DNA from: Escherichia coli
GTDB lineage: Bacteria > Pseudomonadota > Gammaproteobacteria > Enterobacterales > Enterobacteriaceae
Length of the DNA: 64,000 bases
Assembly (NCBI RefSeq): GCF_013315695.1
Contig: NZ_CP054353.1
Reading direction: 5' to 3' (one strand)
Each line of letters starts with the position of its first letter. The stretch's first letter is position 1. Under the pieces are notes generated by a model. The model had not been told where the DNA came from. It saw only the letters and a program-made list of their open reading frames with translations, and did no database searches. Position numbers and translations under genes: made by a program. Shown here piece by piece: positions 26,605 through 30,811 of the stretch.

Positions 26605-26762
26605 TCCTTGCGTTCTGTAAGCCGGTTCAGGAGGAAATCCTGATCCGGCTATTCCGAAAGTTATCCGCCCCCGTCCTCCTCCCCCAAATATCCTTCAGAT
26701 GATGAGTGATCCTGCATTAGGCTATGGCAAGGTGATCAGATTTTCATCACAGGGGAATTATG

Positions 26763-28577
26763 ATGTTAAATGCATGGCACCTGCCGGTGCCCCCATTTGT
26801 TAAACAAAGCAAAGATCAACTGCTCATTACGCTGTGGCTGACGGGCGAAGACCCACCGCAGCGCATTATGCTGCGTACAGAACACGACAACGAAGAAACG
26901 TCAGTAGCGATGCATAAGCAGCGCAGTCAGCCGCAGCCTGGCGTTACCGCATGGCGGGCGGCGATCGATCTCTCCAGCGGGCAACCTCGGCGGCGTTATA
27001 GTTTCAAATTACTGTGGCACGATCGCCAGCGTTGGTTTACACCGCAGGGCTTCAGCCGAATGCCGCCAGCACGACTGGAGCAGTTTGCTGTCGATGTCCC
27101 GGATATCGGCCCACAATGGGCTGCGGATCAGATTTTTTATCAGATCTTCCCTGATCGTTTCGCCCGTAGTCTTCCTCGTGAAGCTGAACAGGATCATGTT
27201 TATTACCATCACGCAGCCGGACAAGAGATCATATTGCGTGACTGGGATGAACCGGTCACGGCGCAGGCGGGCGGATCAACGTTCTATGGCGGCGATCTGG
27301 ACGGTATCAGCGAAAAACTGCCGTATCTGAAAAAGCTCGGCGTGACGGCGCTGTATCTTAACCCGGTGTTTAAAGCCCCCAGCGTACATAAATACGATAC
27401 AGAGGATTATCGCCACGTCGATCCGCAGTTTGGCGGCGACGGAGCGTTGCTGCGTTTGCGACACCATACGCAGCAGCTGGGAATGCGGCTGGTGCTGGAT
27501 GGCGTGTTTAACCACAGTGGCGATTCCCATGCCTGGTTTGACAGGCACAATCGTGGCACGGGTGGTGCTTGTCACAACCCCGAATCGCCCTGGCGCGACT
27601 GGTACTCGTTTAGTGACGATGGCACGGCGCTCGACTGGCTGGGCTATGCCAGCTTGCCGAAACTGGATTATCAGTCGGAAAGTCTGGTGAATGAAATTTA
27701 TCGCGGGGAAGACAGTATTGTCCGCCACTGGCTGAAAGCGCCGTGGAATATGGACGGCTGGCGGCTGGATGTGGTGCATATGCTGGGGGAAGCGGGTGGG
27801 GCGCGCAATAATTTGCAGCACGTTGCCGGGATCACCGAAGCGGCGAAAGAAACCCAGCCGGAAGCGTATATCGTTGGAGAGCATTTTGGCGATGCACGGC
27901 AATGGTTACAGGCCGATGTGGAAGATGCCGCCATGAACTATCGCGGCTTCACATTCCCGTTGTGGGGATTTCTTGCCAATACCGACATCTCTTATGATCC
28001 GCAGCAAATTGACGCCCAAACCTGTATGGCCTGGATGGATAATTACCGCGCCGGACTTTCTCATCAACAGCAACTGCGTATGTTTAATCAGCTCGATAGC
28101 CACGATACTGCGCGATTTAAAACGCTGCTCGGTCGGGATATTGCGCGCCTGCCGCTGGCGGTGGTCTGGTTGTTCACCTGGCCTGGTGTACCATGCATTT
28201 ATTACGGTGATGAAGTGGGGCTGGATGGTAAAAACGATCCGTTTTGCCGTAAACCGTTCCCCTGGCAGGTGGAAAAGCAGGATACGGCGTTATTCGCGCT
28301 GTACCAGCGAATGATTGCGCTGCGTAAGAAAAGTCAGGCGCTGCGTCGTGGCGGCTGTCAGGTGCTGTATGCGGAAGATAACGTGGTGGTATTTGGCCGC
28401 GTGCTGAATCAGCAGCGTGTACTGGTGGCAATCAACCGTGGAGAAGCCTGTGAAGTGGTGCTACCCGCGTCACCGTTGCTTAATGTTGCGCAATGGCAAC
28501 GCAAAGAAGGCCATGGGCAACTGACAGACGGGATTCTGGCTTTGCCTGCCATTTCGGCTACGGTGTGGATCAACTAA
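26763..28577 (+). CDS. malZ: Maltodextrin glucosidase
   Basis: 604-aa GH13 [18 protein letters not shown]... Confidence 0.95.
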
Positions 28578-28763
28578 AGCATCTGTTTTATTTATTACGT
28601 CGTAGTCACCAGCCCTGACACTACGCAGCGCAAAAAAGCTGCTCAATGTCAGGGCTGAGTTTGTTAAATATTTGTCCCGTTCGATATGAGCGATTTTTGG
28701 TATTCTTTGCCCATGAGGTTATGTACAACATGCTCCAGGATAACCCTGTAGTGGAGCAAAGAT

Positions 28764-30209
28764 ATGACAATTTCAAATTCGAATTTATTGAAACCGTTTA
28801 TTCCTGGTACTGAGTTGCCACCTTTTAAAGAGGATGTTTTTTCTAAAACAGAAGAACAATTTAAAAAAAGCCCCCATGGCAAATTGCTTTTCATTTCCGG
28901 AAATGAAAACTTAGTAAACATTTCAGCGGAAAAAATCGATGAAATAAAAAATAGCAAAGATTTCTTTTCAAATATTGTAAATATAATAATTTTAATCATT
29001 AAGCATCCTGATAAAATTCTGCCCATTCTTCATGGTTGTCCTGCAGAGTCCATCGAACTCATTAAGAATGCGAAACGAACGGGGCAATGGTCATATGAGA
29101 TGACTGATAAGAACGGGCAGAATATTGAAGTGTCCTATATTTTCACTGATACCATAGATGATAAATCTGATGGAAAATTATGCTTAAAAATCTGTAACTC
29201 TTGCAACCAAAATGATTCTAGTACACATGAATATAAAATAGATCATCAACAGTTGAAAAATCACATAAGGCAACTTGAGGAGTGGGCCCTTCTTGAAAAG
29301 TTTTATGATAACAACGCTTATTATTCTAAACGTACAAAACAATTAGAGAAGAAAATTGCCGATGCGGGGTTTATAACAGGGAAGGTTAATGCCGATAACT
29401 TTAATGTAAAAGAGTTTAAAGACGATATAGCCTCGATGCTTTGTGAACAGCCCCCCATGCGTACACACCAGATTTCTTCATCCGGATACTTATCTGCCGA
29501 TAAAGTGCCTGATCTCTATAAGACAAATTTGAAAGACGCGCAGAGAGATCTGAAAACAACACCGGTTGACATCGATGGTGTTAGTCTAAAATCAAAAACT
29601 CGGGAAAAAATTGCGGAAAAAATTGCGAAAAAAACTGAGGAAAAAATTGCGAAACAAAATGCGAAGACCATTGAGGAGAAGAATAGTGAAAAAAACAAGA
29701 AAGAAACAAATCCTGAGGATAATTTTGTCTTAAAATTCTCACCGGACGAAATCAATGAGATGCTCCTGGATTACAGCGATGAAGAACAAAAAAAATTAAG
29801 ACCTTTTTTCACTAGTGATCACATCTATTGTTTGTTTGATGCTTTTAGTCAGGGTTTGCATAATGTTGCTCGTAATGGCAGTCCACGGTATGCAGGTTTA
29901 CTACATCAAATAGCATCCAACTCTGAGATATTACAAGATTTTGATCAACAATTGTTCTGGCGCACGTTTTCAGGAGGAGTCTTCCATCGACGTATCTCTG
30001 TGAACAGCGAGCCAGAAAAGACAGATGTATGGCGATTCAGTACACAATTTGATTTTCCACATATAAATGACAACGGGGAGTTGTCCAGAACGGTACTCAT
30101 GTTCGAGGGGGTTGCTGAAAGCAACTTTAAAGATATCGCCAATCATTCCAGCGAATGTTTTTCTTACAGTTGTTATGCCGCTCCGCTGGATGCGAATGCT
30201 AAAAAATAG
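28764..30209 (+). CDS. Hypothetical 481-aa protein in an AT-rich islet; internal Lys/Glu-rich repeat; C-terminal region with a candidate papain-like (OTU-like) cysteine peptidase Cys motif
   Basis: Long uninterrupted ORF with GGAG 8 bp upstream of the ATG; visibly AT-rich codon usage unlike flanking genes; not part of the K-12 malZ-acpH junction as I recall it; motif SDHIYCLFDAFSQGL (Cys356) and downstream FPHIND (His433); function is inference only. Confidence 0.7.
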   Translation: MTISNSNLLKPFIPGTELPPFKEDVFSKTEEQFKKSPHGKLLFISGNENLVNISAEKIDEIKNSKDFFSNIVNIIILIIKHPDKILPILHGCPAESIELIKNAKRTGQWSYEMTDKNGQNIEVSYIFTDTIDDKSDGKLCLKICNSCNQNDSSTHEYKIDHQQLKNHIRQLEEWALLEKFYDNNAYYSKRTKQLEKKIADAGFITGKVNADNFNVKEFKDDIASMLCEQPPMRTHQISSSGYLSADKVPDLYKTNLKDAQRDLKTTPVDIDGVSLKSKTREKIAEKIAKKTEEKIAKQNAKTIEEKNSEKNKKETNPEDNFVLKFSPDEINEMLLDYSDEEQKKLRPFFTSDHIYCLFDAFSQGLHNVARNGSPRYAGLLHQIASNSEILQDFDQQLFWRTFSGGVFHRRISVNSEPEKTDVWRFSTQFDFPHINDNGELSRTVLMFEGVAESNFKDIANHSSECFSYSCYAAPLDANAKK

Positions 30210-30229
30210 TGACGCCGGAGCTTGAAGTT

Positions 30230-30811
30230 TCAGAGCGCCTTGCGTGACGCCTGCGCCATCATCCGCGGATAAAACTGCCAGAAGCGGGTTTCGAGGGCGG
30301 CATAATGTGCGTTTAAATCGTACCAGGAGTCACGCAGGGCATCCAGACGTGGGCGACGGCTTGCCATGCCGTTTAACACGTTCTGGATGAAATCCATATC
30401 GCGATAGCGCACCAGCCACTGCTCTGACCACAAGTAATTGTTCAGATTGATAAAACGTGGCGGTGAGTCCGGCAAAATCGTCATCACTTGCTCGCGGGCA
30501 TAACAGACAAATTCCTGTAGCGGAAAGTCCGGCGACAGCTGCGACCAGTGGCGGGAAAGAAAGTGATCCCACATGACATCCAGCGTAATAGGCGCAACGC
30601 GGCGCGTTTCACTACGAAACCATTCCCGTGCTTCGCGGACTTCCGGCAGATTGTCGGTTAGTACATCAATGCGCCGATGCATATGAATGCCAGCCACGAC
30701 GTCGGGCGGAAAACTTTCTTCAGGATTTCCGCGTACGAAATCAGCCAGTAAATTGCCGGAAAGCGAGCTTTCCGCGAGATGGGCTAAATGCAGGTGAGCT
30801 AAAAAATTCAT
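30230..30811 (-). CDS. acpH: Acyl carrier protein phosphodiesterase AcpH (YajB)
   Basis: 193-aa [28 protein letters not shown]... Confidence 0.9.

What the first reader, a model, noticed from the sequence alone, without database searches (positions are those of the whole stretch)
29604..29663. Five tandem 12-bp repeats inside the 481-aa ORF
GAAAAAATTGCG / GAAAAAATTGCG / AAAAAAACTGAG / GAAAAAATTGCG / AAACAAAATGCG are in-frame 12-bp units encoding (EKIA)(EKIA)(KKTE)(EKIA)(KQNA). Short in-frame tandem repeats are prone to slipped-strand copy-number change, so they may form a variable-length linker between the N-terminal and C-terminal regions.
Basis: seen in the sequence. Interest (0 to 1): 0.35.

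Follow-up and report, generated by a model that had tools for sequence, protein, structure and literature searches.

The report
Variable 12-bp repeat in orphan gene
A short in-frame 12-base repeat inside an uncharacterised, E. coli-only gene really does change copy number between strains (2 to 8 copies), lengthening or shortening a charged helical spacer by four amino acids at a time; this is an ordinary kind of coding-repeat polymorphism in a gene of unknown role.

Summary
Window 29604-29663 holds five head-to-tail 12-bp units, in frame at residues 281-300 of the 481-aa ORF 28764-30209. Lag-12 self-match is 39/48, the single highest value in the 64-kb window, and no shuffle reached it.

- Among close homologues the array has 2 to 8 units (proteins of 469 to 493 aa in steps of 4).
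- All length differences between intact alleles map to the array.
- Several allele pairs are identical outside it but differ by one or two units.
- A natural control, the repeat-less 461-aa allele class, shows no length change at this site in 118 of 118 proteins.
- Copy number is stable within a clone (16 of 16 O157:H7 genomes have 5 units). This is a slow VNTR, not a phase-variation switch.

The host gene lies in a 1.65-kb AT-rich islet between malZ and acpH. It is present in 1127 of 5426 complete E. coli genomes and absent from K-12. It has no detectable relatives or domains outside Escherichia/Shigella. Amino-acid constraint is weak (pN/pS 0.6-0.9), yet the frame is kept open.

The repeat is predicted to be an α-helix followed by a low-confidence tract. 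The most likely mechanism is slippage or unequal recombination producing a tolerated spacer-length polymorphism. Interest is low.

The parts
29604..29663 (+). Core array: five in-frame 12-bp units (EKIA, EKIA, KKTE, EKIA, KQNA; residues 281-300). This is the only part whose copy number varies between strains.
   Evidence: for the sequence and statistics; for copy-number variation of 2-8 units.
29592..29711 (+). Extended K/E-rich tract with 4-residue periodicity. The core array sits among older, degenerate units (SKTR before it; KTIE, EKNS, EKNK, KETN after it).
   Evidence: TRF period-36 row at 29594-29695; the repeat finder family D1; unit-to-consensus scores of 5-8/12 against a background of 3.7.
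28764..30209 (+). 481-aa ORF of unknown function that carries the array. It has a GGAG ribosome-binding site 7 nt upstream of the ATG and is annotated 'hypothetical protein' in RefSeq (e.g. WP_000155946.1 in O157:H7).
   Evidence: No family hits. Orphan status. Zero nonsense changes against 6-10 expected.
28578..30229 (.). AT-rich islet (31-43% GC; flanks 50-58%) lying exactly between the malZ stop and the acpH stop. K-12 has only 4 bp at this position.
   Evidence: Present in 1127 of 5426 complete E. coli genomes, always chromosomal.
29689..29695 (+). A7 homopolymer 26 nt downstream of the array. It is A8 in O145 strains and A6 in one other strain, and both versions give frameshifted pseudogenes.
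29788..29795 (+). A8 homopolymer. It is A7 in strain M00057, which is annotated as frameshifted.
28610..28657 (+). Strong 20-nt-arm hairpin just after the malZ stop and inside the islet. It may be the malZ terminator in islet-bearing strains.
   Evidence: Inverted repeat I2. The 123-nt stretch 28578-28700 containing the hairpin folds at -37.9 kcal/mol, z = -3.6.

Best explanation
The site is a coding VNTR (minisatellite): an array of imperfect 12-bp units. During replication or recombination the units occasionally misalign, by slipped-strand mispairing or unequal exchange between identical units 12, 24 or 36 bp apart. Whole units are then gained or lost.

Because 12 is a multiple of 3, every event keeps the reading frame. 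Each event adds or removes four residues of the type (E/K)(K/E)(I/T)(A/E) in a highly charged, predicted α-helical segment. That segment joins the first ~270 residues to the last ~150 residues of an Escherichia-restricted accessory protein.

If the segment is helical, each unit changes its length by about 6 Å and its phase by about 40° (4 residues × 100° − 360°).

The variation is most likely tolerated, near-neutral spacer-length polymorphism in a weakly constrained protein, not a regulated switch.

What is shown: the repeat itself, its copy-number variation in whole units, the confinement of all length change to the array, and its stability within a clone.

What is inferred: the slippage mechanism, the helical-spacer role and the near-neutrality.
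For: - Repeat statistics.
- The array interval is 15, 19, 23, 27, 31, 35 or 39 aa in 118 homologues.
- In a 60-genome spread sample, 28 genomes have 5 units, 20 have 6, 10 have 7 and 2 carry the repeat-less allele. A 3-unit allele is L003.
- All gaps between intact alleles lie in the array.
- L004 and L011 have zero substitutions between them and differ by one 12-bp unit.
- The common 7-unit allele has at least three different one-unit deletions (P0058, P0061, P0071) and two different one-unit gains (P0060, P0092). Each is identical outside the array to some 7-unit allele.
- Among the clusters listed for that lineage, such derived alleles account for about 17 of about 713 contigs, roughly 2% (counted from the table).
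- P0002, three residues from the window allele, lacks the 36 bp between identical units 1 and 4.
- Control: the repeat-less allele class has a fixed 52-aa interval in 118 of 118 proteins.
- AF2 with the family alignment predicts helix 277-300 at pLDDT 60-75 and gives residues 301-321 below 50.
- The charged-residue fraction peaks at 0.47-0.53 in this region.
- Constraint is weak: pN/pS is 0.70 (N-terminal part), 0.89 (central part) and 0.57 (C-terminal part).
Against: - No slippage event was observed directly. Allelic recombination also shuffles this gene (mosaic allele L009) and could spread copy-number variants.
- The structure models are poor overall (mean pLDDT 36 and 41), so 'helical spacer between two domains' rests on weak prediction.
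- The central region has the highest amino-acid diversity (pN 0.049, pN/pS 0.89). That is equally compatible with some diversifying selection, so neutrality is not demonstrated.
- The function of the protein is unknown, so no phenotype can be tied to spacer length.
Confidence: 0.78

Rival explanations
1. Adaptive length and sequence tuning. The array and the surrounding central cassette are under diversifying selection because the protein meets a variable partner such as a phage, a host factor or a competitor. Copy number then sets a functional spacing or epitope.
For: - The central region has the highest diversity (π up to 0.07 against ~0.02 elsewhere; pN 0.049, pN/pS 0.89).
- Some whole-gene pairwise dN/dS values exceed 1, e.g. 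L001 versus L003, L004 and L011 at 1.65-1.71.
- Two very different central cassettes coexist in the species.
- The gene is an AT-rich accessory islet, a common setting for conflict genes.
Against: - No pN/pS above 1 was found for any region in aggregate.
- Copy number is fixed within O157:H7.
- Derived copy numbers are rare singletons.
- No signal peptide, defence-system, phage or effector family hit was found.
- Pseudogenised alleles persist in lineages such as O145.
Confidence: 0.12
2. DNA-level element. The phased A6-7 tracts (one per 12 bp) form a curved or H-NS-binding AT-rich patch that helps silence the islet, and the protein periodicity is a by-product.
For: The islet has 31-43% GC against 50-58% in the flanks. 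Each unit carries an A-tract. No sigma-70-like promoter was found upstream of the ORF.
Against: - The 12-bp spacing is out of phase with the ~10.5-bp helical repeat, so bends would not add up in one plane (established DNA-curvature knowledge).
- The array lies 840 nt inside the ORF, not at a promoter.
- Variation is always in whole codon-compatible units.
- The ORF is kept open, with 0 nonsense changes against 6-10 expected.
- A repeat-less allele is common.
Confidence: 0.04
3. Artefact. The length differences are assembly or sequencing errors in a low-complexity A-rich stretch.
For: Single-base differences in the nearby A7 and A8 runs occur in lone genomes (L014, L015) and could be homopolymer errors.
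Against: - The array differences are exact multiples of 12.
- They are shared by many independent complete genomes and hundreds of contigs. For example, the 7-unit protein P0089 is on 375 contigs and the 6-unit cluster P0054 has 264 members.
- They correlate with allele background.
Confidence: 0.01
4. Phase-variation (contingency) locus that switches the gene on and off at high frequency.
For: A6, A7 and A8 variants of the run at 29689-29695, and A7/A8 variants of the run at 29788-29795, give frameshifted alleles in 4 of 60 sampled genomes.
Against: The 12-bp array itself cannot change frame. The A8 state is a fixed lineage trait in O145 strains, not a mixed state. O157:H7 is uniform.
Confidence: 0.05

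Closest known systems
Coding VNTR / minisatellite loci of E. coli used in MLVA typing (my recollection of the field: Lindstedt's generic CVN loci and the O157-xx loci, many of them in-frame repeats in hypothetical ORFs; Vogler et al. 2006, J Bacteriol, on copy-number dependence of mutation rate)
   Same: A head-to-tail short repeat inside an ORF, with unit length a multiple of 3. Copy number differs between strains in whole units. The presumed mechanism is slipped-strand mispairing.
   Different: There are few units (2-8) and they are imperfect. Copy number is invariant within O157:H7, so the locus is far less mutable than the 6-bp MLVA loci. Text searches for the locus, the unit sequence or malZ together with VNTR found no prior description.
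Repeat-built length-setting proteins (from memory): the YscP needle-length ruler of the Yersinia injectisome (Journet et al. 2003), the helical K/E/A-rich domain II of TolA, and Lpp length variants that set periplasm width
   Same: A charged, helical, repeat-built segment whose residue number sets the distance between two end regions. Adding or deleting repeats changes the length without destroying the protein.
   Different: No evidence exists that this protein measures or spans anything. It shows no sequence or domain similarity to these families, and its location and partners are unknown. This is an analogy of principle only.
Single α-helix (SAH) E/K-rich domains
   Same: The segment is highly charged, rich in Lys and Glu, and predicted helical.
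   Different: The defining i→i+4 Glu/Lys salt-bridge pattern is absent. At i+4 there are 8 like-charge pairs against 4 opposite-charge pairs, a direct consequence of the 4-residue period. Ile and Ala occupy a regular stripe, with the hydrophobic moment peaking at 90°.
Simple-sequence contingency loci (phase variation by frame-shifting repeats, as in Haemophilus or Neisseria)
   Same: Repeat-mediated mutability inside a coding region. The neighbouring A7 and A8 runs do yield frameshifted alleles.
   Different: The 12-bp unit preserves the frame, and there is no on/off switching and no within-clone heterogeneity.

Membership tests
VNTR (variable-number tandem repeat) locus | Head-to-tail tandem copies of a short unit | tested here: met
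   TRF reports period 12 and 5.1 copies with no indels. Lag-12 self-match is 39/48 and unique in the window.
VNTR (variable-number tandem repeat) locus | Copy number differs among strains, in whole units | tested here: met
   There are 2-8 units among homologues and 3, 5, 6 and 7 units in complete genomes. All differences are multiples of 12 nt.
VNTR (variable-number tandem repeat) locus | Changes arise locally and recurrently, not only by inheritance of old alleles | tested here: met
   Alleles identical outside the array differ by 1-2 units. There are at least 5 distinct events on the 7-unit background. L004 and L011 have 0 substitutions between them. The repeat-less control is invariant in 118 of 118 proteins.
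Phase-variable contingency locus | Repeat change shifts the reading frame or promoter spacing to switch expression | tested here: not met
   The unit is 12 nt, so the frame is always preserved. The array lies 840 nt inside the ORF.
Phase-variable contingency locus | High-frequency variation within a clone | tested here: not met
   All 16 sampled O157:H7 genomes have the same 5-unit length.
Single α-helix (SAH) domain | Dense i→i+4 (and i+3) opposite-charge E/K pairs along a long helix | tested here: not met
   At i+4 there are 4 favourable against 8 repulsive pairs; at i+3 there are 7 against 2.
Canonical coiled coil | Heptad (3-4) spacing of hydrophobic residues over several heptads | tested here: inconclusive
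   Ile and Ala recur every 4 residues, and the hydrophobic moment peaks at 90° rather than ~100-103°. No dedicated coiled-coil predictor was available.
PKD / Ig-like domain (residues ~101-158 of the ORF, outside the repeat) | Significant profile match to PKD-domain sequences | tested here: inconclusive
   phmmer hit to a PKD-repeat protein, P0139, at E 5.9e-7 with 3 stretches. hhalign probability is only 30% and there is no Pfam hit. AF2 places β-strands at 104-160 but at low confidence.

The most novel reading that the evidence does not exclude
The malZ-acpH islet may encode a fast-evolving, Escherichia-specific protein engaged in a molecular conflict, for example as a single-gene anti-phage or inter-bacterial factor or a non-Sec-secreted effector. 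Its central cassette would determine specificity. That cassette exists in a repeat-bearing form with 2-8 units and in a repeat-less form. On this reading the VNTR is an evolvability device that tunes the spacing between a sensing module and an effector module.
Probability: 0.08. Interest if true: 0.55.

Novelty: new member of a known kind. Interest (0 to 1): 0.22.

Why it matters
The finding has limited but real value in three ways.

1. It gives a clean, internally controlled example of a short coding repeat as the sole source of protein-length polymorphism. Repeat-bearing alleles vary in length, while a co-circulating repeat-less allele never does.

2. It flags an unstudied accessory gene carried by about a fifth of complete E. 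coli genomes, including O157:H7. The gene has no homologues elsewhere and unusually weak amino-acid constraint.

3. The locus could serve as a slow, lineage-level typing marker, with 5, 6 and 7 units as the common states.

It does not open a new mechanism or resolve an open question.

Tried and rejected
**Searches for a function of the ORF, all empty or insignificant**
- Pfam, NCBIfam, PADLOC and PHROGs.
- PDB by sequence and by profile.
- phmmer against 1.84 billion representative proteins. This returned only the gene's own 50% cluster, fragments of it, and one weak PKD-repeat hit.
- AF2 from the single sequence (mean pLDDT 36) and with a 52-sequence family alignment (mean pLDDT 41). Both are too poor for fold comparison.
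- Foldseek against the PDB gave nothing with E ≤ 0.001, as expected for such a model.
- The PKD-like lead was tested by hhalign and gave only 30% probability, so it remains unresolved.

**Searches for relatives elsewhere**
- Two wobble-tolerant conserved DNA patterns found nothing in 100,044 species-representative genomes.
- tblastn found nothing in phages.
- tblastn against plasmids hit only two records, both mislabelled 4.9-Mb chromosomes.

**Other checks**
- Rfam on both strands of 28300-30500: no RNA family.
- The antisense ORFs across the array (79 aa and 53 aa) were rejected as by-products of the Lys/Glu codons.
- Four literature searches (locus tags, malZ/acpH islet, unit sequence, malZ with VNTR) found nothing on this locus.
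- SAH-domain and contingency-locus readings were tested and rejected.

Full report
**1. The observation**

Window 29604-29663 reads GAAAAAATTGCG / GAAAAAATTGCG / AAAAAAACTGAG / GAAAAAATTGCG / AAACAAAATGCG. The units are in frame with the 481-aa ORF 28764..30209(+), at residues 281-300, and encode EKIA-EKIA-KKTE-EKIA-KQNA.

Tandem Repeats Finder reports period 12 with 5.1 copies, 81% matches and no indels. It also reports higher-order periods of 24 and 36.

The periodicity is not a by-product of A-richness:
- Lag-12 self-identity is 39/48, against 13.2 ± 3.3 for all 60-nt windows of the 64-kb sequence. No other site reaches this value.
- None of 100,000 shuffles of the 60-mer match it.
- None of 20,000 codon shuffles of the surrounding K/E-rich 40 codons match it.

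Degenerate units flank the core: SKTR before it, and KTIE, EKNS, EKNK and KETN after it. They score 5-8/12 to the consensus, against an ORF background of 3.7 ± 1.9. The young core therefore sits inside an older 4-residue-periodic tract at about 29592-29711.

**2. Setting**

The ORF lies in a 1.65-kb AT-rich islet (31-43% GC; flanks 50-58%). The islet sits exactly between the stop codon of malZ (26760-28577) and the stop codon of the convergent acpH (30230-30811, minus strand). queA and tgt lie downstream.
- E. coli K-12 has only 4 bp between malZ and acpH.
- The islet occurs in 1127 of 5426 complete E. coli genomes, always on the chromosome. It lies between malZ and acpH in every islet-bearing locus fetched with flanks. 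Carriers include O157:H7, where the ORF is the hypothetical protein WP_000155946.1.
- A GGAG ribosome-binding site precedes the ATG.
- A strong hairpin at 28610-28657 follows malZ.
- No sigma-70-like promoter was found upstream of the ORF.
- No Rfam family matches on either strand.

**3. Does the copy number vary?**

Yes.
- Annotated intact CDSs in complete genomes are 1422, 1446, 1458 and 1470 nt long.
- In a DNA alignment, every gap between intact repeat-bearing alleles falls inside the array, giving 3, 5, 6 and 7 units.
- Among 118 close homologue proteins, the interval between conserved anchors is 15, 19, 23, 27, 31, 35 or 39 aa. That is 2 to 8 units, with total lengths of 469 to 493 aa.
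- A sample of 60 genomes taken at even steps down the ranking gives 5 units in 28, 6 units in 20, 7 units in 10, and the repeat-less allele in 2.

**4. Are the changes local and recurrent?**

Yes.
- L004 (7 units) and L011 (6 units) have zero substitutions over the whole CDS and differ only by one 12-bp unit.
- On the common 7-unit background there are three different one-unit deletions (P0058, P0061, P0071) and two different one-unit gains (P0060, P0092). Each is identical outside the array to some 7-unit allele.
- The closest relative of the window's own allele, P0002, differs by 3 residues outside the array. It lacks exactly the 36 bp between identical units 1 and 4. This matches the 36-bp higher-order period found by TRF.
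- A natural control exists. A second allele class of 461 aa (L009; P0141 alone is on 730 contigs) carries a divergent, non-repetitive sequence at this position. Its interval is 52 aa in 118 of 118 proteins.

Length polymorphism therefore tracks the presence of the repeat.

**5. How fast?**

Slowly.
- All 16 O157:H7 genomes in the sample have 5 units.
- Within the 7-unit allele lineage, derived 6- or 8-unit proteins account for about 17 of about 713 contigs among the listed clusters, roughly 2% (counted from the table).
- The array cannot shift the reading frame.

It is therefore a low-rate coding VNTR, not a contingency switch.

Two homopolymers just downstream behave differently. The A7 run at 29689-29695 is A8 in O145 strains and A6 in one strain. 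The A8 run at 29788-29795 is A7 in one strain. All four cases are annotated as frameshifted pseudogenes.

**6. What is the protein?**

It is unknown, and it is an orphan.
- Pfam, NCBIfam, PADLOC, PHROGs and PDB sequence or profile searches give nothing significant.
- phmmer over 1.84 billion representative proteins finds only the protein's own 50% cluster, fragments of it, and one weak hit. That hit aligns residues 101-158 to PKD repeats (E 5.9e-7), and hhalign supports it at only 30% probability.
- Two wobble-tolerant conserved patterns hit none of 100,044 species-representative genomes.
- There is no phage match, and the only two 'plasmid' matches are mislabelled chromosomes.
- The source names given for the homologues are E. 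coli and Shigella dysenteriae, plus Escherichia sp. HH26CH and an unnamed Enterobacteriaceae isolate.

The ORF is nevertheless a real gene. None of the 129-207 substitutions among intact alleles creates a stop codon, where 6-10 would be expected if changes were unconstrained (Poisson P ≈ 0.002). One caveat is that these alleles were chosen as intact.

Amino-acid constraint is weak. pN/pS is 0.70 for residues 1-270, 0.89 for residues 271-330 and 0.57 for residues 331-481. Synonymous divergence of 0.036-0.055 is of the same order as the total nucleotide divergence of the flanking genes (0.023-0.026).

**7. Structure of the repeat region**

AF2 models are poor overall, with mean pLDDT of 36 from the single sequence and 41 with the family alignment. 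In both models the array is helical. With the alignment, residues 277-300 form a helix at pLDDT 60-75. Residues 301-321 fall below 50. A confident short helical region follows at 321-350 (pLDDT 74-89).

The charged-residue fraction peaks here at 0.47-0.53. The segment is not a classical SAH domain, because like charges face each other at i+4 (8 like pairs against 4 opposite pairs). Its 4-residue hydrophobic stripe, with the moment maximal at 90°, is not a heptad pattern.

If the segment is helical, each unit adds about 6 Å and about 40° of twist. This follows from standard α-helix geometry and is an inference.

**8. Explanation adopted**

The array is a coding VNTR generated and resized by slipped-strand mispairing or unequal exchange between identical 12-bp units. 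It produces a tolerated, probably near-neutral length polymorphism of a charged helical spacer in a weakly constrained, Escherichia-specific accessory protein.

Rivals, with my confidence in each:
- Adaptive tuning or diversifying selection of the central cassette, 0.12. The elevated central diversity, some pairwise dN/dS values above 1 and the coexistence of two cassettes keep this alive.
- A phase-variation role, 0.05.
- A DNA-level H-NS or curvature element, 0.04.
- Sequencing artefact, 0.01.

**9. Comparison with known systems**

The locus meets all three tested criteria of a VNTR. It fails the criteria for a contingency locus and for an SAH domain. It resembles repeat-built length-setting proteins (YscP, TolA domain II, Lpp variants; recalled from memory) only in principle.

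Four literature searches found no description of this locus or repeat.

**10. Verdict**

This is a new member of a well-known kind of feature, in a gene whose function remains unknown. Interest is low (0.22). The mildly interesting residue is the orphan gene itself and its two coexisting central cassettes.

Noticed in passing
window 29689-29695 and 29788-29795; loci L005, L008, L014, L015: Two poly-A runs just downstream of the array are recurrent frameshift sites. The A7 run is A8 in O145 strains (shared by several independent assemblies, so probably real) and A6 in strain 19KM1776. The A8 run is A7 in strain M00057. All are annotated as frameshifted pseudogenes, and they make up 4 of 60 sampled genomes.
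   Followed up: partly
L009:388-1773 (aligned to window ~29540-29960): A second allele class of 461 aa (P0141 is on 730 contigs) is a mosaic. A central cassette of about 400 nt is only 35-88% identical to the window and lacks the repeat and the NFVLKFSP segment. Its flanks are 93-100% identical to other alleles. The donor of this cassette is unknown, since no relative was found outside E. coli.
   Followed up: partly
L013 (E. coli O55:H7 USDA5905), locus 94-1834: A deletion joins a C-terminally truncated malZ directly to the last 336 nt of the ORF. Both are annotated as partial pseudogenes, so the islet can also decay by deletion.
   Followed up: no
window 28610-28657: A strong hairpin with 20-nt arms (85% complementary, 8-nt loop) lies immediately after the malZ stop, inside the islet. 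The 123-nt stretch 28578-28700 containing it folds at -37.9 kcal/mol (z = -3.6). It may be the malZ terminator in islet-bearing strains; K-12 has no such spacer.
   Followed up: partly
window 29064-29237 (ORF residues 101-158): There is weak similarity to PKD-domain repeats of a 947-aa metagenomic protein, P0139 (phmmer E 5.9e-7, three stretches). AF2 places β-strands there, but hhalign probability is only 30% and Pfam gives no hit.
   Followed up: yes
window 28764-30209 (whole ORF): Amino-acid constraint is unusually weak for an intact E. coli gene. Regional pN/pS is 0.57-0.89, and some allele pairs have dN/dS above 1.6. Yet there are no nonsense changes, against 6-10 expected.
   Followed up: partly
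window 30209-30230: The ORF stop and the stop of the convergent acpH are only 20 nt apart, with no terminator-like structure between them. Transcripts of the two genes would therefore overlap.
   Followed up: no
window 28926-28947: A 22-nt stretch in the N-terminal part of the ORF (GCGGAAAAAATCGATGAAATAA, encoding AEKIDEIK) is 73-77% identical to the array units (repeat finder family D2). It could be the source of the unit, or the match could be chance.
   Followed up: no
PLSDB records NZ_CP134663.1 and NZ_CP141089.1: Two entries in the plasmid collection that carry the gene are 4.9-Mb E. coli chromosomes, apparently misfiled as plasmids.
   Followed up: no
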